This document shows positions 135 through 64,000 of a stretch of DNA of 64,000 bases, one piece after another. The notes beneath the pieces were generated by a model. That model had not been told where the DNA came from. It searched no databases and saw only the letters and a program-made list of their open reading frames with translations. Each line of letters begins with the position of its first letter. Position 1 is the stretch's first letter. The DNA is from Eledone cirrhosa (Eukaryota), in contig OZ024758.1 in the NCBI GenBank assembly GCA_964016885.1, forward strand, positions 32,240,001-32,304,000. Direction: 5' to 3'. The position numbers and the translations under genes are program-made.

Positions 135-359
135 CTGCAAATAAAAGATAAAACAAAAACAATTGATACCATGCGTTATTTCATTCTGCTTAGTTTTTTA
201 CATCAAAATAATTACAAGCATTCTTTAACCCTTTAGCATTTAAACCAGCCAGAATCCTCTCACCTCTCTCTCTTCAAACCAACCGTAACTGGTCACTCAT
301 ACCTACATTAAGGTATTGTTCTCAAAATAAATAACATAAAAATCTCATAGATTCAACCT

Positions 360-670
360 TATGTGAGGTAAAGCCTTTACTGTGAAAATACAATAGTATA
401 TATAGAGTAGTGTAAATGTTATGTGAGATATTATGTGAGGTAAAGCCTTTACTGTGAATATAGAGTAATGTAAATTCTATGTGGGATACTATGTGAGGTA
501 AAGCCTTTACTGTGAAAATACAATAATATATATAGAATAATGTAAATGTTATGTGAGGTAAAGCCTTTACTGTGAAAATACAATAATATATATAGAGTAG
601 TGTAAATGTTATGTGAGATATTATGTGAGGTAAAGCCTTTACTGTGAAAATACAATAGTATATATAGAGT
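360..670. repeat. minisatellite (60/72-bp units) inside the MITE, left part
   Basis: Repeats of atgtgaggtaaagcctttactgtgaaaatacaatagtatatatagagtartgtaaatgtt, with or without atgtgagatatt. Confidence 0.95.
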
Positions 671-907
671 GATTTCTTTATTTGCCACTAGGGCACAAAA
701 GGTAGGGACAGATACAAGGGGGGAAGTTTACATATAATTAACGAGTACAAAAATATAACAATGAAATAACAACAACAAACGAAGTCCTCAATAGAGAGGG
801 GGCATTAACATGGGTCGCACACACCCCGGAAAAAATGTGCAACCCTTCTCCTCAGGAGCTCAAAGAGTAGGTGCTTCCCTCGTCTCCTCTTTTTCCTCTT
901 CTTTCAC

Positions 908-3900
908 CTACAGGCTGATATAGAGAGAAGACCCATTCACTCTGGCCATTCTCCCTACTTTCACCCACCTTTCATAAAACTTGCTGGGGTAGAGCACCTC
1001 TCTCTCCATTCTGATCCTTCTTTTAAAATGGTATTTGAAAAAGGGGACCAGTTGTTGGCCGGAGAGAAAGGTGTCTGACCTCAGCCCTTTCAGCCTCATC
1101 CACCATACAACTTCTTTAGCCATGGCTATCACACAGAGAAAAACCGCCTCTCCTTCGTTTTTGAAAGGGGGAGGCGGTTTGATCGTGACAATGGACTCGG
1201 TGGTCAACCGGATTGGTCCCACCCTCGACAGTAGTCGTTCCACATAGCCCCACAGGTCAGCAATGCCTGGGCAGTGTACGAATGCGTGCGCAACGGTTTC
1301 GTCGTCATGCACGCATCTCGGACAGATCTTATTCAAAGGATCCCTACCCAGGCTCCCATGCCTGTGGAGCTTGTCTCGAACGGGTAGAGCCCCTCGGTAG
1401 CACTGCCAAGCCAGGGACTTTTGGAAGTTGTCCATCGGTCCAGGGCCAAACGTCCTACCGAACAGACTGGCCAGTTCATCTTCCTCCAAGCCTAGAGCTT
1501 CTCCGAGAGCATCGTCGCACCTGCTGCGTACCAACCCTCTATAGAATGTCGAGGTGGAGTCTCCACTGATTGCCGGGTCCGCTTTCCAGAAGGCCGTGAG
1601 CGCCTGGGCACATTCAATGTGCCAGTCGCCCACTTTTCTCGGTCTTTGCTTGACCCAGGATTGCAGCTCGGTGAGCGAGACGAATCTGGGAAAGGCTCGC
1701 TTCACAAACGGGGCCCACACCGGTTGACTGGTGAGGAATACCTGGAGGTGCCGTAGCCTTAATGCGTGTTTACGCATCTGTAGCCATGGCATCCCCAGCC
1801 CTCCTTTCGAAGGGTGTTGACAGCAGATGGATCTCCTCACCAAAGGGGTCCGCTTGTTCCAAAGAAATTGGAACAGCGCGCACTCCACTGGGCAAGGCAC
1901 GACGGTCAAGCGGTAGTAGATGACGGATGCTATATAAGTATTCGACACCTCCGCTCGACCTTTCAGGGATAGTTTGCACTGGGCCCACTTCTGGGTGAGT
2001 GCAAACACCCTGGCCGTTACCTCGTTCCAGTTTTTCTCCACCTGGAGGTCTGGTCCGAACTAGACCCCAAGCAGCTTCACCGGGCCCTCCGTCCAGCGTC
2101 CGACGACGTCGTTGGAGGGCATCGGTTTGCCTCTCCATGTTCCGAGTTGCAAACCGACGGACTTGTCCCGGTTCAGCTTGTCTCCTGTAAACCTTTCATA
2201 TTCCTCCAGTAAGGTGCCGATCTCACCGATTTGCGAGGTTTTCGACACCATTACTGTCACGTCATCGGCGTAGGCCGACGCCGCTTTCTGCAATCCCGGT
2301 TCCAAAGGGATGCCCTGCAACTGCTCCAACTTCCTCAGTAGTGGCTCAAGAGCCAGCACATACAGAAGGGAGGAGAGAGGGCATCCCTGTCGGATGGATC
2401 GCATGATTTGGAACGGCTCCGAGAGGTGGCCGTTCACCTTGACCGTTGAGCAGACGTTGCTGCTGTGCATCGCAGCAATCCAACCCCTGAAAACGGGTCC
2501 GAAGCCTGCCGCCGCGAGCACCGCATCCAGGTAACGATGGTCAACCCTATCGAAAGCTTTAGATTGATCCAAGTTGATCAGGGCCCCACCAAAGCCGGGT
2601 TCATTCCCTACCCTCTCTATGATGTATCGCATAAGGTGGAGATTGTCATGAATGGACCTGGACGGGATTGCGCATGTCTGCGCTTCTCCCACCAGGTTTC
2701 CGACGACAAGCGCCAACCTCTTCGCTAACACCTTGGCCAAAATCTTTAACTCTGTATTTAGCAGAGTTATGGGCCTGAAGTTACTTATGTCATCCCCCTT
2801 GTTCTCATCCTTCCTCACCAGCGTAACTACGCCCTTGGTCACAGAACTGGGAATTCTCCCATTCTGCTGCCAGTTGCAGTAGACCGCTTCGAGGATATCG
2901 GAGAACAAGTCTGGCATCGCTACATATAGCTCGTATGGTAGACCATCGAGACCCGGGGATTTGCGTTTGCCACATTGGCTCAGCGCCACCCCTATCTCAG
3001 CAGCTGAAATCGGCCTTTTGCAGGACTTCGCCTCCGCATCTGTGAGGCGCGGCAGACCGTCGAGGTATGGATTGAAATCCATAGTCTCACCCGGCGCGCC
3101 ACCCCTCTCGAACAGTCATGCAAAGTGCCGCTGAAAGGCCGCACACATCTGCCCAGGTTCAAGGATCACACGCCCATCCTGGTCCTTCAAAGACCGAATC
3201 GTGGACTTGTTCCCACTTTTTGCCTCTGTCACTCGGGCCCAGCTAACAGCTTTGGCTCCCTCATTACCCAGAGCACGTATTTTACTCCTGACAACGCAGC
3301 CTTCATGCTTCACCTCAAAGAACTGGTCTAAGGCCATTCTTGATGCCAGCACGCCGGCTACATTGCCACTCCTAATCGCCTCTTCTACTCTATCTACTAA
3401 TTCCCTTTCCGTCTTGTTCCTATCCCTTGCTAATTCCTGACTAAAACCTATCGATTCTATTCTAATTGCTCTCTTAAGAGAGCTCCACCACCTGTTGTTG
3501 ACAATTGCCCCTGTCAAACTCTGCTTAAATAACGTGCTAATCCGTTTACTGTAAGCTTTGCTTGTCGGTAAGGACAAGTTCAGCTTCCAGTAACCGGGTC
3601 CCTGTCTATGGGTTCTATCAAGGTTGGCTATGCAGGTCACTAACTTGTGATCCGAATAGTCAACCATGAACATTTTTGGACAGCTAAATGTGTCCCTATC
3701 CTTCTCTCTAACTAGGACCCTATCTAGGTACGACCTAGATGTTCCGCTGCGATTGGTCCACGTCCATAGTGGTACAGTCGGAAAATCTAGTCGATATCTA
3801 TCGGCCAGGTCAAATCGGCCGATTAACCTTTTGAGGCTTTTACACCCCCCTCTATTGGCACATGCCCCTACATAGTCCCAACGTGCATCCAGGATACCAT

Positions 3901-4327
3901 TCCAGTCCCCCACTAAAAGCAAGGAGCGGGACGTTCCCAGAAAAGTTTCCAGACGTTGGAAGTATTCCGGCCGCGCTGCCCAAAAAGGGGCGTACACAGC
4001 AATTAGTCTAAGGGCTTCACTTTCACTACTGCCGACGTCTAAAACCACCAGTCGACCTTCTGGGTCCAGGTGCACCTTCTGTATGGCGAGGCCCAGGTGT
4101 TTTCGCAGCAGAACGACAACTCCACCCCCACCCCCCGGTTGACAGAGAGATGCGAAGATCTCAAAGTCGTCAAAGAGGGGCGCCAGTTGGTGCTCGCTGC
4201 TGATCCTGGACTCGTAAATAGCCATTACATCCATTCTATGCGACCTGAGATCGTTTAAAAGTTTGCCTTGTTTCCAAGACAGTCCCAGGCCGCGTACATT
4301 CAGACACCCAACTCTTATATCAGCCAT
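908..4327 (-). pseudogene. LINE ORF2 (APE endonuclease, reverse transcriptase, zf-RVT), two in-frame stops
   Basis: ORFs 4327-3116, 3082-2060 and 2041-908 share one frame. Motifs: LNVRGL, GDWN, SDH; SPGLDG, FRPITLLN, KAFDRV, QGCPLS, YADD; CPRC..ETVAHAFVHC. Confidence 0.95.
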
Positions 4328-4348
4328 GTTGGTTAAAAGAGGAAGGAC

Positions 4349-5948
4349 CTACCTGTTCGGCTCCTGAGGAGCAGGTTGCACAATATCCATGGGCGTATTG
4401 GAGGGGTTGTTTGGTGGGGTGTTGTTCTGTGGTGGGGTGGGGGTATTTGGTGAGGTGTGGGTGGGGAAACGTTTCAAGAGGACGCGGTTATAGGGTCGAG
4501 TACATGTTTTCCCCACGTCCTCAGGAAAGTTCTCTCTTAGTTTTGCATAGGTGTCCATTGGGAGTCTTATCATTTTTAAATGCGGTTTGTTGGCCGCGCT
4601 TGCAAAGAATTGCCCTTCAGTTTCCACCGTAGGGTCTTTGTGTATTGTTTTTACTAGTTCTTTGTTATTTGTGTTAATGTATGTATACTGTTTTATTTGT
4701 GTTGTGTTTGTTTGTTGTTCTTGTGTGTGCTTGTGTTTTGTTGTATGTGTTATGTTTTGGGTTTGTGTTGTGTTTGTTTGTTGTTCTTGTGTGTGCTTGT
4801 GTTTTGTTGTATGTGTTATGTTTTGGGGTGGGGCGGATTTTGTTTGTTCTGTTTGTTTTGTTTTTGTTGGTGGTTGTGTGTTTGTTTCGTTTATGTTCGA
4901 GTGGTGCTTTTTTTTTTTCCTATTTACAGGTTGGAAGGGTCCCCCCTCTTCGTCACTAGGTGCCGTTTCAGCTGGGTCCTCGTCCGTGCTGTCGGGTAGT
5001 GGTGTATTTTGGGGTTTTGTTGTGTTTGTGTGTGTTTTTGGAGTTGTTTTGGGTGGGGCCGTGTCTTGTGTTATTTTTCCGTGTTGTTTTTGTTGTTGTT
5101 GTGGTGGTGGTGGTGGTGGCGGTGCTGGTGTGTGGGGTGTAGGCAAAAGAGCCTTTTTTTTGTCAATTGAGGACAGGCAGCCCTTAGATGACCCCTGCTT
5201 GAACAGTAGTAACATATGGGCCTCCTACCCTCGGCTGAAATGTATATAAATGTTTCTCCATCGAGGGACACCCTCTGTGGTATTCTAGCTATTCGCTCTG
5301 GTCTCATTTGGACCAGAATCTCCACGCTCAAACCGCCGAAAACGTCTGTGGTGACTTCTCCTACTGAGAGGATTCCGTCCTCGTCTTCTAAAAATCCTGT
5401 CAGTACCCAGGAAATGCATGCATTTGGCCGGATTCCGGAGACTCTTATTTTCTGCGTTCTTTTCCCCAAATATGTGGTGAAAATGTGTGTAGCTTGGAAA
5501 CAATTGGCGCCACAGAGTATTTCCTGGCCGTCAACTGATCCTTCATTAGCACCGTTATATTCCCATAGAGTGGCCCTTTTTTTATGAACGATATATCACT
5601 CCACACATTTTTAAGGACCAGCTCCATCTCTTTTTGGGATAATTTAGCTGGTTTCCTTGTTATGTTGGAAATTGTTCTGAAAGATATCGTTCTTAGTGTC
5701 GTGTCTCTTTTGATTTCTTGTGGGGAGGTGATTGTGAAGTCTCCTCCTTCTTTGAAAGTTACATACTGTTTTGCTTCCTTCATCTTTTCTCTCAGAGTTG
5801 TAATGTCCAGTTGTTTGCAGGTCTGTGTTTTCCGGTGGTTAGTGTTGTGACTATTGCTGTTATTGTCATTGTTGTTTTTGTCTGCGTTTATGTGACTTTC
5901 TGGGTTTTCACCCATTTTTACAAATTTTTCTTTTAATTCCATGTTCAT
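4349..5948 (-). pseudogene. LINE ORF1 (gag-like, zinc knuckle), two frameshifts
   Basis: Three overlapping frames (5948-5445, 5469-5071, 5215-4349). CYYCSSRGHLRAAC knuckle followed by a P/T/Q/K-rich low-complexity region with a 57-bp internal duplication. Confidence 0.85.
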
Positions 5949-6262
5949 GTTTCTTTTGCAGAAGTGAGGAGGGAAGACTTAGAGCCTTGTGCTTCTAGCT
6001 TCTCTGTATCACCTTTCTTAGGGGGCGTGGCTTTCTCGTTAGGATGAGATGTGAAAATTACGTCCATTTCTATCAGTTTTAACTGGAAAATTCGCCCCAA
6101 AAAGGGGCGAAAATAAATAAACTCAAAGTTTGACGACCAAGGCAAGGGGTTAACGTATATTACAGTATAAAAAAATTAATCAAAACTCACTTTTGAGTAA
6201 GTAAATCCAACTCGGTAGCCAAGCTTGTTCACACACGTCAACACACGTCTCTCGTATACGAG

Positions 6263-6540
6263 ATGTTATGTGAGATATTATGTGAGGTAAAGTCTTTACT
6301 GTGACAATACAATAGTATATATAGAGTAATGTAAATGTTATGTGAGATATTATGTGAGATAAAGCCTTTACTGTGAAAATACAATAGTATATATAGAGTA
6401 ATGTAAATGTTATGTGAGGTAAAGCCTTTACTGTGAAAATACAATAGTATATATAGAGTAATGTAAATGTTATGTGGGATATTATGTGAGGTAAAGCCTT
6501 TACTGTGAAAATACAATAGTATATATAGAGTAATGTAAAT
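6263..6540. repeat. same minisatellite, right part
   Basis: About 4 more units. The array resumes directly after the LINE 5' end. Confidence 0.95.
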
Positions 6541-6638
6541 GCTAAAGGGTTAACCTTTTTGTGGCTGTATTTCTAATGAAATACACTATTTCAATTAAGA
6601 TGAAGAATTTTGAAGGATTTACTAAAATTATCAATTAT

Positions 6639-13882: not shown

Positions 13883-13934
13883 CTATAAGTAAAGTAGAAA
13901 AAATTATTAACCATTTAAAAATAAATATACTATA

Positions 13935-14495
13935 TGTGATGATATCAATCAAAAAATTTATAGCATGTGTTGATATCAACATCTTATAACGGTTTGATAT
14001 CAACCATACATTTTATAGCATGTTTTGATATCAATCATACAATTTATAGCATGTGTTGATATCAACATTTTACAGCATAGAGTGTGTTGATATCAACATT
14101 TTACAATATAGCATGTGATGATATCAACATTTTACAGCATAGCATGTGTTGATATCAATATTTTACAATTTATAGCATGTTTGATATCAGCATTTTATAG
14201 CATAGCATGTGTTGATATCAACATTTTATAGTATAGCATGTGTTGATATCAACATTTTATAGCATAGCATGTGTTGATATCAACATTTTATAGCATAGCA
14301 TATGTTGATATCAACATTTTATTGTATAGAATATGTTGATATCAACATTTTACAGTATAGCATGTGTTGATATCAATATTTTATAGCATAGCATGTGTTG
14401 ATATCAACATTTTATAGCATAGCATGTGTTGATATCAACATTTTACAGTATAGCATGTGTTGATATCAACATTTTATTGTATAGCATGTGTTGAT
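13935..14495. repeat. ~30-bp minisatellite with palindromic core TGTTGATATCAACA
   Basis: About 18 units of atagcatgtgttgatatcaacattttayagc. Confidence 0.95.
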
Positions 14496-14600
14496 AGGTG
14501 ATTATAATGGGATGCTCCACAGTTATATTTCCTGAAGAAATGCAGTTCTATATATTATGTATTGTGTTATTGAAAGAGACGTAGAAATTAAAGAATGGAT

Positions 14601-15203
14601 TTTAGTGGTTGAACTTGGTAATTCTTCATTATATATAAAACAGAAGACCTGACTTCCCATGGGCACAGGTCGAAGATGAAGCATATATATATAATATGCA
14701 ACACTTCACACATCTCCCATGAGGACAAGCTGAAGTATACATTCAGTGAAGCTTCCAGCCCACACTGTAAAGTGGTCATGTAGGTGTCACGACAAAAAGC
14801 ACCCAGTCCACACTACAAAGTGGTCATGTAGGTGTCACGACAAAAAGCACCCAGTCCACACTGTAAAGTGGTGGTGTAGGTGTCACGACAAAAAGCACCC
14901 AGTCCACACTGTAAAGTGGTGGTGTAGGTGTCATGACAAAAAGCACCCAGTCCACACTACAAAGTGGTGTCATGACAAAAAGCACCCAGTCCACACTGTA
15001 AAGTGGCTGTGTAGGTGTCATGACAAAAAGCACTCACTGTAAATGAGGTTGGTGCCAGGAAGAGCATCCAGCTGTAGAAACCAAGCCAAAATTGGTTCTG
15101 TGTGAGCATGACATGGCCACCTGACCTAACATTGCTCACAACAGTATAATTTGTCTAACCCATGTGTGGAAAAATGGACATTAAACGGTGATGATGATGA
15201 TGA
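14601..15203 (+). mobile_element. RTE 3'UTR fragment with a 48-bp tandem array (14755-15045)
   Basis: About 6 units of gtgtcacgacaaaaagcacccagtccacactgtaaagtggtggtgtag, then ggaagagcatccagctgtagaaacc and a (GAT)n tail. Confidence 0.8.
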
Positions 15204-15243: not shown

Positions 15244-15567
15244 ACTTCTCCCAAGAAATTTGCTATTTCTGAATATTCTGAGGAAATATGCTATAAAAAA
15301 TGTTCCTAGAGCCAAAATTGTTGACAGGAGTGCAGTGTTAGGTTGATTCGAACTTTTTGCGTAATGATTTTGACTTTTTAAATTATCCTCAACCCCAGAC
15401 TCTGTTGTGATGTGAGTTTGGTCTACTGTGGCACCCATAGAGGAATTAAATAGAGTGTATGGTATTTCAGACACTGGTTCTAAAGAATTACTGCTATTGA
15501 AGCTTGGAAGAACAATGTTTGGACAACAGGATTCACAATCAGCTATCAATGGGTATTTTTGATAAAT
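15244..15567 (-). CDS. SLC4 anion exchanger exon (extracellular loop 3 and TM6)
   Basis: ttgcag|IYQKYPL...QPNTALLSTILALGTFFIAYFLRIFRNSKFLGRS|gtaagt. 324 nt, phase 0 to 0. Confidence 0.96.
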
Positions 15568-18104: not shown

Positions 18105-18533
18105 TTTAGATTTACATTACTCTACATATACTATTGTATTTTCACAGTAAAGGCTTTACCTTACATAATATCTCACATAACATTTACATTACTCTATATA
18201 TACTATTGTATTTTCACAGTAAAGGCTTTACCTCACATATCTCACATAACATTTACATTACTCTATATATACTATTGTATTTTCACAGTAAAGGCTTTAC
18301 CTCACATAATATCTCACATAACATCTACATTACTCTATATATACTATTGTATTTTCACAGTAAAGGCTTTACCGCACATAATTATCTCACATAATATTGA
18401 ATCTATGAGATTTTGATATTATTTATTTTAAGAACAATAACTTAACATCAGTATGAATAGCCAGTTACAGCTTTTTGAACAGAAAGGGGTGAGAGAATTC
18501 TGGCCAGATATGACCAGTTTAAATGCTAAAGAG
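18105..18533 (-). mobile_element. TTAA MITE family 1, second minisatellite-expanded copy
   Basis: End TAAATGCTAAAGAG|TTAA, with 4 units of the same ~70-bp repeat (18110-18395). The other TIR is degraded. Confidence 0.85.
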
Positions 18534-18734
18534 TTAAACATGTGCTTTCTTGGTTTACCATCTAGCAACAAGTATTTTATTTCTTTTAATTTTCTACAGT
18601 CTTGTTTTGTTTCCTAAAGGAATGATTGACAAGATCCCAGATTGCATTCACTCACCAAATTGGACCAAGGAAACAATGTTTTCATTGGTATTTCCAATTG
18701 CTGATACTATCAACTAGTTGCAACTCCTGGCAGA

Positions 18735-22636: not shown

Positions 22637-23182
22637 GAGGGTTGGACACCATGCTAGGGCAGTTGATTGGCAGTATCGGTAGAGGGTCGGACACCATGTT
22701 AGGGCAGTGGATTGGCAGTATCGGTAGAGGGTCAGACACCTTGCTAGAGCAGTATCGGTAGAGGGTCGGACACCATGTTAGGGTGGTGGATTGGCAGTAT
22801 TGGTAGAGGGTCGGACACCATGTTAGGGTGGTGGATTGACAGTATTGGTAGAGGGTCAGACACCATGTTAGGGTGGTGGAATGGCAGTATCAGTAGGGGG
22901 TTGGACACCATGTTAGGGCTGTGGATTGGCAGTATCGGTAGAGGGTCAGACACCATGCTAGGGCAGTGGATTGGGGCAGTATCGGTAGAGGGTCAGACAC
23001 CATGTTAGGGTGGTGGATTGGCAGTATTGGTAGAGGGTCGGACACCATGTTAGGGCAGTGGATTGGCAGTATCGGTAGAGGGTCAGACATCATGCTAGGG
23101 CAGTGGATTGGCAGTATTGGTAGAGGGTCGGACACCATGTTAGGGCGGTGGATTGGCAGTATCGGTAGAGGGTCAGACACCA
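22637..23182 (+). repeat. 45-bp minisatellite made of the SINE type 1 5' head
   Basis: About 12 units of gggcagtggattggcagtatcggtagagggtcggacaccatgtta. Confidence 0.95.
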
Positions 23183-23337
23183 TTCTTTGACACATAGAGT
23201 TACTGCCCTTGCCATTCTGATTTCAAATCCACCCCCCGAGGTTATCTTTGCCTTTCATCCTTACAGGGTTGATAAAATAAAGTACCAGTAATGCACTGGG
23301 TAATTGCTAGCCTTGTGCCAAAAGTAGAAACAATTAT
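23143..23337 (+). mobile_element. SINE type 1 body that continues from the last repeat unit
   Basis: ...catagagttactgcc...ttcaaatcc...gcctttcatccttacagggttgataaaataaagtaccag...gtagaaacaattatt. Confidence 0.85.
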
Positions 23338-26595: not shown

Positions 26596-27215
26596 ACAGC
26601 TATGATACTATAATATATTTACAATACAGCTATGATACTATAATATATTTACAATACAGCTATGATACTATAATATATTGACAATACAGCTATGATACTA
26701 TAATATAATATATTGACAATACAGCTATGATACAGTAATATAATATATTGACAATACAGCTATGATACTATAATATAATATATTGACAATACAGCTATGA
26801 TACAGTAATATATTTACAATACAGCTATGATACTATAATATAATATATTGACAATACAGCTATGATACAGTAATATATTTACAATACAGCTATGATACTA
26901 TAATATAATATATTGACAATACAGCTATGATACTATAATATAATATATTGACAATACAGCTATGATACAGTAATATATTTACAATACAGCTATGATACTA
27001 TAATATAATATATTGACAATACAGCTATGATACAGTAATATATTTACAATACAGCTATGATACTATAATATAATATATTGACAATACAGCTATGATACTA
27101 TAATATATTGACAATACAGCTATGATACTATAATATAATATATTGACAATACAGTTATGATACAGTAAAATAATATATTGACAATATGATACTATAATAT
27201 ATTTACAATACAGTT
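26596..27215. repeat. 30/35-bp AT-rich minisatellite
   Basis: About 19 units of acaatacagctatgatac(t/a)(a/g)taata(taata)tatt(t/g). Confidence 0.95.
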
Positions 27216-27298
27216 ATATCCCATGTCAATTCTTACAAAATTATAGCCTGGCACACTTGCAATTAGTTTTCAAATAACATATATGTGACATGAGGTTT

Positions 27299-28406: not shown

Positions 28407-28524
28407 CCTTGACGGATATATTTGTATCTAATATTTCAGCTCCACACAAGAAGGTGTCACTAAGTGACCAATCTGTTCTATCCAGTTGTTTTGGCTTTGT
28501 TCTAATCCTTCTAGTCTCTCTTTG

Positions 28525-28695
28525 TACTAATTTTACCATTATACTTTGTCCTAATTTTACCATTATACTTTGTCCTAATTTTACCATTATACTTTGTCCT
28601 AGTTTTACCATTATACTTTGTCCTGATTTTACCATTATACTTTGTCCTAATTTTACCATTATATTTTGTCCTAGTTTTATCATTATATTTTAGCC
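28525..28695. repeat. 24-bp minisatellite
   Basis: 7 units of ctaattttaccattatactttgtc. Confidence 0.95.
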
Positions 28696-28719
28696 TAGTC
28701 CTTACTCAACAAAAAACAT

Positions 28720-29062
28720 TCATTCTACCCTGTTAAGTGATCATGTTAGTGCCATGACAAAAAACACCCAGTTCACCCTATAATGTGGTAGTGTTGGTGC
28801 CATGACAAAAAAACACACACACACCATATCCTTTCAGGTCATCATGCTGGTTCCAAGACAAAAAGCACCCAGTCCACCCTGTAAGATGGTAGTGTTAGTG
28901 CCATGAAAAATGCTCCCAGTACACACTGACAAGTGGAAGGCATCTAACCATAGAAAACCAAGCCAAAAAATGGAGTGTATGAACACCTGTACAATATAGA
29001 TTCATAATGCAACCTGTCTAACCCATGTAAGTATGGAAAATAGACATTAAATGATGATGATG
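28720..29062 (+). mobile_element. degenerate RTE-type 3'UTR or SINE with the tandem module
   Basis: Repeats of gtgccatgacaaaaagcacccagtccac, then ggaagggcatc, taacccatg and a (GAT)n tail. Confidence 0.65.
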
Positions 29063-46912: not shown

Positions 46913-49627
46913 TCATCATCATCATCATCATCACCGTTTTACGTCCGTTCTTCCACGCTAGCATGGGTTAGACGGGTTGTCCTGTTGTGGGCAGTGTCTG
47001 GTCGGCTGACCATGCCTTGCTCATACAGGAACTGATCTGGCTTGATTTCTACAGCTGGATGCCCTTCCTAACACCAACCTCATTTACAGTGAGTGCTGGG
47101 TGCTTTTTCGTGGCGCCTACACGTCCACTTTACAGTGTGGGCTGGGTGCTTTTTTGCCGTGGCACCTCCACGACCACCTTGCGGTGGGGGGGGGGGGGGG
47201 CATATTGTTTATATGCTTCAGCATGTACCCATGGGAGGTCGGGTACCCTGTATTACTGCGTGACGCCAGAAGTCACGGTCGTGTGTCATTGACTTTGAGA
47301 GGTGTAGTTGGGTAAGGTCGGCTTTTATCACCTCATCCCAAGTCATCTTGGGTCTCCCCACTCCGCGGTTTCCATCAACTTCTAGTGCTCTGCACCTTTT
47401 TATGCAGCTGTCATCCTTCATACGCATCACATGTCCATACCAGCGTAACCGCCTCTCCTGCACGCAGCATTTGATTCCTCTTATGCTCAGTCTCTCTCTC
47501 AATTCCTTTATGCTTTGTCGTTCACGTATATTACTGTTACACATCCATCGGAGCATGCAGGCTTCGTTTCTCTCTAATCTACGTAAGTCTTCCACCTTCA
47601 GCGCCCAGGTCTCACTACCATGCAACATCGCTGTTCGGATACACGCATCATACAGTCTGCCTTTCATTCTGAGGGAGAAGCCTTTTGCAGCTAGCAGTGG
47701 TAGTAGTTCCCTAAACTTCTTCCATCCCGTTCTTACCCTAGTTATTGTACTTTCTGAGCACCCACCTCCGTTGCTAATTCGGTCACCTAGGTAGCAGAAG
47801 CTGTCTACTGTTTCTACAGGGCCCTCCCAGAGATTGGTGGTACTTGTTTCCTGTGGCTGTTTGCTTGCTGTTTCAGCACAGCTGCTGCATGTGAATCCTA
47901 CATTCTTAATTAAGCTTCCTGAGATCCCGCTACATCTCTTGTGTACCCATTGTTTGCATTTGGGGCAGAGAATGGAGTTCCTACCTACACCTTTCCTACA
48001 TACTGAGCAAGGCCATTTCCCTGAGGGGATCTGGGTTCTGTTTTCTCGTCTACTTATAAGGACCTTAGTCTTTGTCATGTTGACTTTGAGGCCCTTTCTC
48101 TCTAGTCCCTGCTTCCAGGTTTGGAATTTATTCTCTAGTTCTACCATAGATTCAGCTATGAGTGCGAGGTCATCAGCATACAGGAGTTCCCATGGGCATC
48201 CGGTCTTAAACTCCTCCGTTATTGCCTGCAGGACTATGATGAACAGGAGAGGGCTAAGAACAGAGCCCTGGTGGACCCCAACCTGTACGCTAAATTCCTC
48301 GCTATACTCATTGCCAATCCTAACTTTGCTGACTGCTCCCCTATACATGGCTTGTACCGCTTTCACAAGCCATTCATCTACTCCTAGTTTTCTAAGAGCC
48401 CACCAGATTACTGCACGTGGAACTCTGTCAAAGGCTTTCTCAAGGTCGACAAATGCCAAGTAGAGTGGCTTACTTTTAGCTAGGTACTTTTCCTGTAATT
48501 GCCTCACAAGGAAGAGGGCATCAGTGGTGCCTTTCCCTGGTACAAACCCAAATTGCATCTCGTCTATATTCACCCGGTCCCTAATCAGCTGTGCTATAAC
48601 TCTTTCTGTTACTTTCATGACCTGGTCCATCAACTTTATACCTCTATAGTTTCCTCTATCTAGTGCATCGCCTTTACCTTTGTAGCAGTTGACAATGATG
48701 CTACTGCACCAATCTTTTGGTATGGCCCCCTCTAGTATTACCTGGTTAACGATACGTGTGGTTATAGTGTGACCTACAGACCCAGATGCCTTCAGCATCT
48801 CGGCAGCTATACCCGATGGACCGGTTGCCTTCCCTATCTTCATATCTCTGATTGCCTTACTTACTACGCTGCCGCTGACTTGTACTGCTGGTCCCTCTAT
48901 AGGGTCTACGTGGGGTAGGGTCTCTTCTTCCCATGCATTCTCCTCATTTAGTAATCTATCATAATGACTCTTCCATGCATCTTTCTTCTCAGCACTTGTG
49001 AGGGCAAGCTCACCTTTATCATTCCGGATACACTTCTCTCCAATGACATCACAACTATCTCTGACACACTGCCTCGCAATCTTGAATACCTCCTGTTTCT
49101 GGTCCTCACGTTGTAAAACATGCTTGAATTTTCTATCCTCTGCTTCCCTCCTAGCTAAGTATACTTGTCGCCTAGCTTCCCTCTTGGTCTCTATGTAATG
49201 TACCCTGCTCCCCCCGTTCTTCCATTCTTTCCATGCCTGTCTCTTGGCCTTGACTGCTTCATCTACCCTATTGTTCAACCACCAAGTCACTCTCCTCCTG
49301 CTTGAGGTCTTACTCCAGCCACAAACCTCATCCGTCGCCTCTAGTAAGTTATTTTTTAGGAACTCCCAGTTCTCTTCTACGTTAAATGTCTCTATCTGTT
49401 CTTCTTTACTGTCGTAGGCGTTGAGTAAAATATCTTTAAATCTGTTACTGGTTGAGGGGACTTTCAGCTTCCAGATCTTTCTTCTCCAGGTTGGCCTCTG
49501 TTTCAGGGCTCGTCTAGTTCTGACCGTGAGGTCACTGACAACTAAGCTATGTTGGGATGTACATTCCTCACTAGGGAAGGCTTTTGTGTTTACGACCGTC
49601 CATCTGTCACGTCCTCTGATGAGGATA
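46913..49627 (-). mobile_element. RTE family B, 5'-truncated young copy
   Basis: Uninterrupted ORF, complete 3'UTR and (GAT)n tail, lying between TA-rich tracts. Confidence 0.96.
47218..49627 (-). CDS. RTE ORF: APE C-terminal end, RT (YADD), PHD-like C4HC3 insert and C-terminal domain; lacks its own start
   Basis: About 800 codons with no stop: KATGPSG, NYRGIKL, QFGF, DLEKAFDRV, GVHQGSVLSP, YADD, FCYLG, WYGHV. The N-terminal MMMMMIYIY is microsatellite read-through. Confidence 0.9.
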
Positions 49628-49677
49628 AAATATATACATACATATACATATATATATATATCTATGTATATATATAT

Positions 49678-51601
49678 CATCATCATCATCATCATCGTTT
49701 AATGTCCATATTCCACGCTTGCATGGGTTTGGACAGGAGTTTTCCCACTTGAGGCAAGAGTGGTTGTCTTGCTCGCATAGGACTGTCTGGCGGGTTTTCT
49801 ACGGCTGGATGCCCTTCCTAACACCAACGACATTTACAGTGAGGAACTGGGAGGTTTTTACCGTGTTACCTACACGGCCACATTACAGCGTGGACTGTGT
49901 GTTTTTTTGTCATGACACCTACACGACCTCATTTGTTTCGGCCTGGATGTTGTGGTACCAACATAACTTTACATTGAAAGGGGCGGTGTGGATGGGGTGG
50001 GGGTAGTGGGACGGGGGTGTATTTTGTTAGAGGTGCCTACTGACTGTAGTAGGTTTTACTTTGTATTTAGGTAAGGCGGGTCTTCTCTATTACTGTGTAC
50101 CGCCAAAGATCTCGGTCCAGTGACATTGTCTTGGAGAGGTGCAAGTGTGTGAGGTCGGAATTTATCAAGTCGTCCCAGGTTTTTCTAGGTCTGCCTACTC
50201 CGTGGCTACCCTGCACTTTTTTTATACAGCTGTCGTCTTTCATGCGCATCACGTGACCATACCAACATAGCCTTCTCTCGAGTAAACAACATCTGATCCC
50301 TCTTATTTCTAATTTTTCCCTTAGTTCGTTAATGCTTTGCCGTTCACGTATATTACTATTACACATCCAGCGGAGCATGCAAGCTTCGTTCCTCTCTAGT
50401 CTGCGTATATCCTCTGCACACAATGCCCAGGTCTCACTGCCATGCAACATTGCTGTTCGTATGCAGGCATCATACAGCCTGCCTTTCATTTTTAGGGAGA
50501 ACCCTTTAGCGGCTAATAGTGATATAAGCTCTCTGAACTTTTTCCATCCAGTTCTGACTCTAGCTACTGTACTTTCAGAGCACCCTCCCCCACTGCTGAT
50601 TTTGTCACCCAGGTAACAGAAGCTGTCCACTATTTCTATAGAACCCTCTGTGCAATTGAAAGAGCTAGTATTCTGTGGCACTTGCTGCTACTTATTGCAC
50701 CAGAGCACCGGCCACATGTAAAATCTATGTTCTTAGTTAGCTTACCTGTGATCCCACTACATCTTTTATGCACCCATACTTTGCATTTGGGACATAAAAT
50801 GGAGTTTCTACCTACTCCTTTCCTACACACTGAGCATGGCCATTTCCCGGATGGGACCGGCGCCCTATTTTCCTTCCTACAAACTAGAACTTTAGTCTTA
50901 GACAAGTTAATTTTAAGGCCTTTTGATTCTAGGCCGTGCTTCCATGTTTGGAATTTCTTCTCTAGTTCGGCCATTGATTCAGCTATGAGCGTTAGATCAT
51001 CTGCGTATAGGAGTTCCCATTGGCAGCCGGTCTTGAACTCCACTGTTATAGCCTGAAGGACAATAATAAATAGTAGGGGGCTAAGAACGGAGCCCTGATG
51101 AACACCAACTTTTACGCTAAACTCTTCACTATATTCGTTGTTAATTCTAACCTTGCTGACTGTTTCTTTATACATGGCTTGTATAGCTCTCACAAGCCAT
51201 TCATCAACACCTAGTTTTCTAAGAGCCCACCAGATAATGGAACGGGGACTCTGTCGAAGGCTTTCTCCAAGTCGACAAAAGCTAAGTATAGGGGTTTACT
51301 TTTAACTAGGTACTTCTCCTGTAGTTGTCGTACAATGAAAAGAGCGTCTGTGGTACTTTTGCCTGACACAAACCCGAACTGCATTTCATCTAGATCAATT
51401 CTCTCTCTGATTAGTTGCGCTATTAATTTTTCCGTGACCTTCATGACCTGGTCGATTAATTTAATGCCTCTATAGTTACTCCTATCTAGGGCGTCTCCTT
51501 TACCCTTGTAGCAGTTAATGATGATGCTGCTACGCCAGTCCTTCGGAACAACACCATTCTGTATGACTTGGTTTACTATCCGGGTGACCATGGTGTGTCC
51601 C
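49678..51601 (-). mobile_element. RTE family C, 5'-truncated, frameshifted
   Basis: ORFs 51636-51211, 51193-50636 and 50681-50067 tile the RT to the C-terminus. Confidence 0.95.
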
Positions 51602-61862: not shown

Positions 61863-62905
61863 CTCTGGTGCAATAAGTAGCAGCAACTGCCCACAGAATA
61901 CTAGCTCATTCCATTGCACAGATGGTTCTATAGAAATAGTGGACACCTTCCGTTACCTGGGTGACAAAATCAGCAGTGGTGGAGGGTGCTCTGAAAGTAC
62001 AGTAGCTAGAGTCAGAACGGGATGGAAAAAGTTCAGAGAGCTTATATCACTATTGGCCGCTAAAGGGTTCTCTCTAAAAATGAAAGGCAGGCTGTATGAT
62101 GCCTGCATACGAACAGTAATGTTACATGGCAGTGAGACCTGGGCATTGTGTGCAGAGGATATACGCAGACTAGAGAGGAACAAAGCTTGCATGCTCCGCT
62201 GGATGTGTAATAGTAATATACGTGAACGGCAAAGCATAAACGAACTAAGGGAGAAATTAGGAATAAGAGGGATCAGATGCTGTTTACTCGAGAGAAGACT
62301 ACGTTGGTACGGTCACGTGATGCGCATGAAAGACGATAGCTGTATAAAAAAGTGCAGGGCGATAAAAAATAGACGGTAGCCACGGAGTAGGCAGACCCAG
62401 AAAAACCTGGGATGACTTGATAAATTCCGACCTCACACACTTACACCTCTCCAAGACAATGTCACTGGACCGAGATCTTTGGCGCTACACAGTAATACAG
62501 AAGACCCGCCTTGCCTAAGTACAAAGCAAAACCTACAGTCAGTAGGCCCCTCTAACAAAAATACACCCCCGTCCCACTACCCCCACCCTATCCACACCAC
62601 CCCTTTCAATGTAAAGTTATGTTGGTGCCACAACATCCAGGCCGAAACAAATGAGGCCGTGTAGGTGTCACGACAAAAAAAACACACAGTCCACACTGTA
62701 ATGTGGCCGTGTAGGTAACACGGTAAAAACCTCCCAGTCCACACTGTAAATGTGGTTGGTGTTAGGAAGGGCATCCAGTCGTAGAAAACCCACCAGACAG
62801 TCCTATACGAACAAGACAACCAATCTTGCCTCAAGTGGGAAAATTCACGTCCAAACCCATGCTAGCGTAGAAGATGGACGTTAAACGATGATGATGATGG
62901 TGATG
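61863..62905 (+). mobile_element. RTE family C, 3' fragment
   Basis: FRYLG..GSETW..WYGHV, 3'UTR and (GAT)n. Confidence 0.93.
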
Positions 62906-62965
62906 GTATGTTTATTTAAAAACATTTTGAAAGCCTTTCACTATGAATTCTAAGGTACCAACGAA

Positions 62966-64000
62966 CCGTTTAACGTCCATTTTTCCATGCTAGCATGCGT
63001 TAGATGAGTTGTCCTGTTGTGGGCTATGCCAGGTCAGGTGACCATGTCTTGCCCATCAGAACTGATTTTGGTTTGGTTTCTACAGTTGGATGCCCTTCCT
63101 AGCGCCAACATCATTTACAGTGAATACTGAATGCTTTTTGTCATGACACCTACATAAGGACTTTACAGTGTGAAGTGGGTGCTTTTTGTCGTGACACTTA
63201 CACAACGACTTTACAGTGTTGGCTGGTCAATTTTTGCCATACACAACCATTGTACAGTGTAAACTGGGTGCTTTTTATAGTGACACTTACACGAACACTT
63301 TACAGTGTGGGTTGGGTGCTTTTTGCTGTGTCCCCATCATGATCACTTTACAGTGTGCGCTAGGCACTTTTCATCATGTCACCATCACAACCACTTTACA
63401 GTGTGGGCTGGAGGCTTCACTGGATGTATACTTCAGCTTGTCCTCATGGGAGATGAATGGGTTGGGTGGAGTGGGATGAGGTGGTGCATACTGTATATAT
63501 GCTTTGGTCTGTGCCCGTGGGAAGTTGGGTCTTCTGTATTACAGGGTAACACCAGGCATCTTGGTCCTGTGTCATCGCCTTTAAGAGGTGCAATTGGGCA
63601 AGGTCAGCTTTTAACACCTTATCCCAAGTCTTCCTGGACCTCCCCACACCAAGGTTTTCATCGTTTTTGAGCGCTCTGCACCTTTCTATACAGCTGTCAT
63701 CTTTCATATGCAACACATGTCCATACTAATGCAATCTCCTATCCTGCACACAGCATCTGATTCCTTTTATGGTTAGTTTCTTTCTCAATTCGTTTATGCT
63801 TTGCCCTTCACATATATTACTATTACACATCCATCAGAGCTTGCAGGCTTCATTTCTTTCTAATCTACGCAAGTCTTCTGCACACACCACCCAGGTCTCA
63901 CTACCATGCAACATTGCTGTTCGTATGCACACATCATACAGTCTACCTTTCATTTTGAGGGGAAAGCCTTTTGTACCTAGTAGTGGTAGTAGTTCTCTGT
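62966..64000 (-). mobile_element. older RTE (family B-like) 3' fragment, runs off the window edge
   Basis: MLHGSETW, MKDDSCIERCRAL, GRSRKTWD and a degenerate 48-bp 3'UTR array. Confidence 0.88.

What the first reader, a model, noticed from the sequence alone, without database searches (positions are those of the whole stretch)
225..6553. Tx1C-like composite: full-length L1/Tx1 LINE inside the internal tandem repeat of a TTAA MITE
Seen: a ~210-bp TTAA MITE (six copies here) whose internal 60/72-bp segment has been tandemly amplified. The array is split by a complete 5.6-kb LINE with a CCHC ORF1 and an APE-RT-zf ORF2. Both TIRs and the TTAA TSD are intact, so the 6.3-kb unit could still be a transposase substrate. 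Established: Xenopus Tx1L/Tx2L insert site-specifically into internal tandem repeats of TTAA-flanked TIR elements, and the Tx1 clade has repeatedly evolved target specificity. Inference: this may be an independent LINE-MITE pairing in an invertebrate. Caveat: one case only, and no TSD is visible (about 7 bp of the repeat unit is missing at the junction).
Basis: partly seen in the sequence, partly recalled or inferred. Interest (0 to 1): 0.72.

Follow-up and report, generated by a model that had tools for sequence, protein, structure and literature searches.

The report
Octopod LINE targets piggyBac MITE repeat
A young copy-and-paste jumping gene with about 320 copies in a likely octopus genome sits at one exact base of a 72-letter repeat inside an older DNA transposon; it likely carries about 25 letters of that landing site on its RNA to seal each full-length insertion, a new example of tricks already known from frogs and flies.

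Summary
The structure is real: a full-length L1/Tx1-like LINE (671-6262, minus strand; both ORFs broken in this copy) splits the 60/72-bp array of a TTAA MITE whose ends match an intact piggyBac family. It is not a single case. 323 family 3' ends abut TAGAGT; 66 of 67 and 60 of 60 fetched copies share the exact junction. The '7-bp loss' is systematic in full-length copies, while 3 of 4 truncated copies show 2-9 bp duplications. The unit touching the 5' end lacks local array variants in its first ~25 nt (0 of 11) but keeps them beyond (17 of 24), so the LINE likely carries a target copy and anneals it, as modelled for Drosophila R1A and R2. Co-mobilisation is unsupported: 65 host arms differ by at least 4% (mean 16%) while the LINEs differ by 1.4%. 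Close relatives sit in (GATA)n; the direction of the switch is unresolved (AU p=0.37). Tx1-clade membership was not tested against named references. The scan already reported this family at 8 or more other loci.

The parts
225..228 (+). left TTAA target-site duplication of the MITE
229..358 (+). left TIR (229-242) and non-repeated arm of a piggyBac-type MITE; old, no twin in the genome
   Evidence: (ends match 2.57-kb piggyBac elements)
359..670 (+). left internal tandem array, 5 units; ends at the first-strand nick and priming site (...TATAGAGT, base 670)
   Evidence: same junction in 66 of 67 and 60 of 60 other copies
671..907 (-). LINE 3' UTR; AATAAA about 5-10 nt from the end, no poly(A) tail
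908..4327 (-). ORF2 (APE endonuclease, RT, zf-RVT); two in-frame stops in this copy; 1145 aa in intact sisters
4349..6067 (-). ORF1 with one CCHC knuckle and a low-complexity C-terminus; frameshifted here; 580 aa in intact sisters
6068..6262 (-). LINE 5' UTR ending in a 12-bp palindrome at the junction
6263..6288 (-). inferred element-borne 5' head: about 25-29 nt copy of the start of the repeat unit, near-invariant across copies; predicted to pair with the LINE's first 35 nt in RNA
   Evidence: fold z -2.4
6289..6531 (+). right internal array (rest of the first unit plus 3 units), target-derived
6532..6553 (+). MITE right end: right TIR (6536-6549) and TTAA (6550-6553)

Best explanation
This is one dead copy of a young family of about 320 L1/Tx1-like LINEs that sit at a single base of the 60/72-bp repeat inside an old piggyBac-type MITE, and that likely finish full-length insertion by annealing a 25-29 nt target copy carried at the RNA 5' end. 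Shown: the fixed 3' junction, the fixed 5' junction with a net 7-bp loss, replacement of local array variants in the first ~25 nt only, short duplications in truncated copies, and separate entry into unrelated MITE copies. Inferred: the APE domain nicks after ...TATAGAGT and RT primes there (TPRT); the cDNA ends in the start of a repeat unit, pairs with the next unit of the array (second nick about 7 nt upstream, or strand invasion) and primes the second strand, overwriting the local letters; a truncated cDNA lacks the head and uses a downstream nick, giving a 2-9 bp TSD. This would favour full-length copies (63 of 67 retain the 5' end) and multi-unit arrays, and lets copies stack head to tail.
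For: 3' junction: 29 of 30 best hits in a unit; 66 of 67 family copies among 80 position-ordered loci; 60 of 60 copies picked by RT protein match; 323 genome-wide with TAGAGT; of 21 copies with a non-consensus base 31 nt out, 19 are still unit-like. 5' junction: 312 ends, 100 of 100 listed followed by a unit start, 98 of the 72-bp type; only 3 deviate at +34/+36, all small deletions within a unit. Head: first 25 nt 3 mismatches in 1425 positions against about 2.6% in other units; local variants carried 0 of 11 at positions 0-25 and 17 of 24 at 26-64, controls 4 of 7 and 6 of 11 proximal; in 60-bp arrays (L115, L116) only the adjacent unit is 72-type, and in L111 two array-wide variants are missing only there. 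Not a 65-bp TSD: variants shared across the LINE 28 of 134, neighbour control 32 of 84. Truncated copies L113, L160, L150 have TSDs of about 9, 6 and 2 bp. Young: mean 1.4%, minimum 0.02% between chromosomes; 12 of 63 with both ORFs open. Precedent: R1A model (PMC2718515 section 15) and R2 (PMC3774820 Discussion part 1).
Against: No RNA evidence for the transcript start. One of four truncated copies (L146) is joined at the unit start like a full-length copy, which a bare nick 7 nt upstream would also give. No clean off-target full-length insertion was found to measure the head directly; three copies without a left MITE part (L335-L337) still have whole arrays on the 5' side and stay unexplained. 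The proximal test rests on 11 sites in 8 loci plus two 60-bp arrays, and sites and tandem copies are not independent. Post-insertion array turnover could add to the gradient.
Confidence: 0.8

Rival explanations
1. Site-specific insertion with a plain second nick 7 nt upstream and no RNA head; the adjacent unit is simply the next target unit, and its uniformity comes from selection (for example as a promoter) or later array turnover.
For: Net 7-bp loss in all full-length copies; truncated L146 has the same joint.
Against: Local variants are absent only from the adjacent unit's first 25 nt, 0 of 11, including in copies 0.1-0.3% from their nearest sisters (L116, L111); 0 of 63 full-length copies lack a following unit while 13 have exactly one, although truncated L150 shows a last unit can be hit.
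Confidence: 0.1
2. The MITE-LINE composite spreads as a unit through piggyBac transposase.
For: Both TIRs and TTAA are intact here; 2,575-bp piggyBac copies with an open 561-aa frame, 0-0.3% apart on different chromosomes, have near-identical ends.
Against: 65 arms: closest pair 4.1%, mean 16.3%; LINE pairs 0.12-0.37% apart sit in arms 11-20% apart; the window's arm has no twin. The sample covers about a fifth of the copies, so single rare events would be missed.
Confidence: 0.05
3. The repeats are the LINE's own tandem tail or head, carried along by transduction, and not a pre-existing target.
For: Array units are much more uniform (2.7%) than their arms (7.8%); L335-L337 lack a left MITE part.
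Against: Arrays flanking the youngest copies carry locus-specific variants on both sides; LINE-free arrays exist inside the MITE; truncated copies show ordinary TSDs.
Confidence: 0.05

Closest known systems
Xenopus laevis Tx1L in Tx1D (Tx1C composite). Seen: passages in PMC4494074, PMC1950540, PMC6719617; the primary papers were not held
   Same: Two-ORF APE-RT LINE inserted at a specific sequence in a non-autonomous piggyBac element.
   Different: Octopod host, unrelated target sequence. Full-length copies here give a 7-bp loss with an overwritten head; Tx1L is recalled (no call) to make a ~23-bp TSD in internal tandem repeats. No sign here of composite transposition.
Crocodilian Tx1-Mar (Mariner-N4_AMi), Tx1-9_AMi (Harbinger), Kibi/Koshi and (TTCC)n groups (PMC4494074 section 15 read; other passages)
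   Same: Tx1 families that target DNA transposons, with microsatellite-targeting relatives; co-transcription from the host transposon is suggested there for SINEU.
   Different: Described as preference; here about 99% at one base, within a tandem array, with sister families in (GATA)n at about 80% DNA identity in the same genome.
Drosophila melanogaster-group R1A (PMC2718515 section 15 read)
   Same: APE element (recalled); full-length copies make a precise 9-bp deletion using 7-28 nt of upstream target on the RNA, while all truncated copies have TSDs. The same pattern is seen here (7 bp; 25-29 nt).
   Different: R1 clade and 28S rDNA target; here an L1/Tx1-like element and a selfish repeat whose local variants make the overwriting visible.
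R2 with upstream ribozyme cleavage (PMC3774820 abstract and Discussion part 1 read)
   Same: 9-36 nt of target at the RNA 5' end gives uniform junctions; a uniform 7-bp deletion is noted in springtail; target letters are built into the 5' RNA fold.
   Different: RLE endonuclease (recalled) and an HDV-like ribozyme; no Rfam ribozyme was matched here.

Membership tests
L1/Tx1-like APE non-LTR retrotransposon | ORF2 with APE, RT and C-terminal zinc finger, preceded by a separate ORF1 | tested here: met
   best solved-structure match human L1 ORF2p E 3e-53 against R2 3e-23
Tx1 clade | RT/APE phylogeny groups with Tx1L, Keno, Kibi, Koshi, Mutsu rather than L1 proper | not testable with these tools
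   None of the 78 homologues bears such a name; Atlas clusters unnamed; no reference set held
Tx1 clade | ORF1 with CCHC zinc knuckle (feature recalled) | tested here: inconclusive
   one knuckle, zf-CCHC E 0.0069, 16.9 bits, under the 20.8 cut-off
Tx1 clade, target-specific families | more than 20% of flanks are one target type (criterion in PMC4494074) | tested here: met
   65 of 67 unit-like over 30 nt; 60 of 60
non-autonomous piggyBac (MITE) | TTAA TSD and termini shared with a piggyBac transposase element | tested here: met
   PF13843 elements of 2.55-2.58 kb have ends differing from the MITE's by 0-2 of the first 16 nt inside TTAA
Tx1C-type composite | LINE at a fixed site in the internal repeats of a TTAA TIR element | tested here: met
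Tx1C-type composite | composite copied as a unit to new TTAA sites | tested here: not met
   no twin among 65 arms or for this arm; limited power for rare events
R1A/R2-type annealed 5' joining | uniform full-length 5' junction with a target deletion; TSDs in truncated copies | tested here: met
   3 of 4 truncated copies fit, L146 does not
R1A/R2-type annealed 5' joining | [quoted passage not shown] | tested here: inconclusive
   inferred from overwriting; RNA itself not examined
R2-type HDV-like ribozyme | self-cleaving fold at the 5' end | tested here: not met
   Rfam scan of 5900-6560: one chance hit at 18 bits; a plain hairpin is predicted; an uncatalogued ribozyme is not excluded

The most novel reading that the evidence does not exclude
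The LINE manufactures its own habitat. After switching from (GATA)n, its nicking and head-annealing spread one derived 72-bp unit into thousands of old single-unit MITEs and drive the arrays' growth, so a retrotransposon turns a dead DNA transposon into a dispersed satellite that it then colonises. Basis: array units are 2.7% from one reference while their arms are 7.8% and single-unit copies 9.5% from theirs, and arrays carry alleles that are a minority in single-unit MITEs. Against: the head covers only about 25 of 72 bp, and arrays beside the youngest copies are local.
Probability: 0.15. Interest if true: 0.78.

Novelty: new variant of a known kind. Interest (0 to 1): 0.5.

Why it matters
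It is a likely independent repeat, in an octopod, of the Xenopus arrangement (a site-specific LINE living in a non-autonomous piggyBac). It shows the R1A/R2 annealed 5' join in an L1/Tx1-like element, with natural array variants marking how far the RNA overwrites the target. Intact copies differing by 1-2 bases, next to (GATA)n-targeting sisters about 80% identical, make two open questions testable: which endonuclease residues switch a target, and how second-strand synthesis is primed. A mostly full-length, single-site APE element is also of interest for targeted insertion. No new principle is shown.

Tried and rejected
65-bp TSD: rejected. Whole 65-nt or multi-unit head: rejected for typical copies, since distal variants are local. 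3' transduction of units: not seen in 8 youngest copies. Co-mobilisation: no twins. Known ribozyme: none. Expression: no RNA holder listed; contigs of two unclassified runs, X1 and X3, were laid and one X1 contig bridges the 5' junction, but the runs may be the assembly's own source and show nothing on transcript starts. Naming the clade through homologue names or the Atlas failed. Direction of the target switch: family A lies in a clade with GATA-flanked families (87/96), with an (AAT)n-flanked relative outside, but GATA monophyly without A is not rejected (AU p=0.37; 15 rows, partial C-terminal halves). Off-target copies to measure the head: L334 is a later RTE insertion; L335-L337 are ambiguous. 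Literature: 8 searches listed no paper describing this family; the O. vulgaris repeat paper PMC13282606 (passages only) counts 13 recently active L1-Tx1 families without target analysis in the passages seen. Repbase/Dfam entries, supplements and the primary Tx1 papers were not seen and may hold it.

Full report
Observation. The window shows TTAA, a 14-bp TIR, an arm, five repeat units, a 5,592-bp LINE on the minus strand (671-6262), four more units, the TIR and TTAA. Five further MITE copies lie in the window, four with one unit and one with four. ORF2 pieces match APE, RT and zf-RVT. This copy is dead: two stops in ORF2 and frameshifts in ORF1. Intact sisters encode 580 and 1145 aa; 12 of 63 fetched full-length copies have both frames open. 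An anion-exchanger exon at 15244-15567 is 93% identical to Octopus vulgaris, so the host is likely an octopod.

Targeting. An exact 26-mer from the 3' end has 299 matches. I fetched 80 of the first 83 listed, leaving out three inside one tandem cluster. 67 belong to this family (A) and 13 to a sister family about 80% identical and flanked by (GATA)n on both sides where both ends could be read. Of the 67, 66 join at exactly the same base and 65 have a unit-like flank over 30 nt. A second set of 60 copies picked by RT protein match gave 60 of 60. Genome-wide, 323 family-A 3' ends are preceded by TAGAGT. A pattern that selects flanks deviating 31 nt out found 21, of which 19 are still unit-like. 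The MITE is abundant (16,351 exact left-TIR 21-mers; 36,274 exact unit 28-mers), yet the chance of one base on one strand is about 3e-5 on a generous count. Some fetched copies are tandem neighbours and not independent.

5' junction. 312 5' ends were counted; 100 of 100 listed are followed by the start of a unit, 98 of the long type, and only 3 in the genome deviate at both test positions, all by small deletions. It is not a 65-bp TSD: variants of the unit before the LINE reappear after it in 28 of 134 cases, fewer than between ordinary neighbours (32 of 84). The adjacent unit is a hybrid. Its first 25 nt have 3 mismatches in 1,425 positions against about 2.6% in other units, and its last 30 nt vary like any unit. 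Variants shared by an array's neighbours are carried in 0 of 11 cases at positions 0-25 and 17 of 24 at 26-64; the controls are 4 of 7 and 6 of 11 proximally. L111, L115, L116, L139 and L161 show this directly. Copies 0.02-0.04% apart on three chromosomes have different distal variants, so the distal part is local and the proximal 25-29 nt is likely inherited with the element. Of four 5'-truncated copies, three have duplications of about 9, 6 and 2 bp, and one (L146) is joined at the unit start. The head is predicted to pair with the LINE's first 35 nt (z -2.4); Rfam finds no ribozyme.

Mechanism. Shown: fixed junctions, overwriting, short TSDs in truncated copies. Inferred: nick after ...TATAGAGT, TPRT, then annealing of the cDNA's target-like end to the next unit to prime the second strand. 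The same model is set out for melanogaster-group R1A (9-bp deletion, 7-28 nt of target on the RNA, TSDs in all truncated copies; PMC2718515 section 15) and for R2 (9-36 nt; PMC3774820 Discussion part 1). It would explain why 63 of 67 copies are full-length and why none of 63 lacks a following unit.

Host element and co-mobilisation. piggyBac transposase elements of about 2.57 kb carry nearly the same ends; several have an open 561-aa frame and are 0-0.3% apart, so the MITE is a non-autonomous piggyBac and could in principle still move. But arms around LINE copies differ by 16% on average and never less than 4% (65 arms), LINE pairs 0.12-0.37% apart sit in arms 11-20% apart, and this arm has no twin. 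The LINE entered each MITE separately. About a fifth of copies were compared, so rare events remain possible.

Origin. Family A falls in a clade (87/96) whose other members with a readable 3' flank are GATA-flanked; an (AAT)n-flanked relative lies outside. A switch from microsatellite to MITE is the most economical reading, but the AU test does not reject the alternative (p=0.37). Tx1-clade membership could not be tested, because no named reference was returned; the protein is L1-like.

Known and new. Tx1L in the non-autonomous piggyBac Tx1D, and crocodilian Tx1 families targeting Mariner and Harbinger, are in print (PMC4494074 passages and sections 12 and 15; passages of PMC1950540 and PMC6719617). 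Eight searches listed no description of this octopod family; repeat databases and supplements were not seen. The scan's own notes report the same family at eight other loci with the same reading; I reached mine before that call, and the notes are not independent support. One thing stays unexplained: array units are about three times more uniform than their arms and carry alleles that are a minority in 22 single-unit MITEs. Verdict: real, well supported, a new variant of a known kind; interest 0.5.

Noticed in passing
window 15244-15567 (-): Exon of an SLC4 anion-exchanger gene, 93% identical to Octopus vulgaris AE2-like; the composite may lie in an intron or just beyond this gene.
   Followed up: partly
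L105, L117-L121, L131, L133-L137, L143: Sister LINE families flanked by (GATA)n, with at least two different 5' UTRs on similar ORF2, often stacked head to tail through 12 nt of GATA; an (AAT)n-flanked relative at L099:9211 (oriented copy).
   Followed up: partly
G000 C1-C4: Family A lies near chromosome ends (35 of 39 within 31 Mb of an end of 380-440 Mb chromosomes), whereas 10 of 12 GATA-family copies lie further in.
   Followed up: no
L092-L097 (C1 4.22-4.26 Mb); C10 40.72-40.75 Mb: Head-to-tail runs of 5-6 LINE copies inside one array, some separated by a single 65-bp unit.
   Followed up: partly
L232-L240, L243, L247: Recently active 2,575-bp piggyBac family with an open 561-aa frame; L235 and L236 are identical on different chromosomes.
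   Followed up: partly
L172, L190, L192, L196, L198; window 18110-18537: LINE-free MITEs with 4-23 or more units, most close to one reference unit although their arms are old.
   Followed up: partly
window 37600-64000: Many copies of an unrelated RT-encoding LINE (RTE-like, label recalled), one with an 826-aa open frame at 47218-49698.
   Followed up: no
window 13934-14496, 14755-15033, 22637-23183, 26596-27217, 28520-28924, 62649-63405: Other minisatellites of 24-65 bp; a 48-bp unit recurs at three separate places, perhaps inside another element.
   Followed up: no
G000 C20:1185, 9639, 6288581: Three copies where a MITE right end sits directly inside the target unit about 20 nt before the junction.
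   Followed up: no
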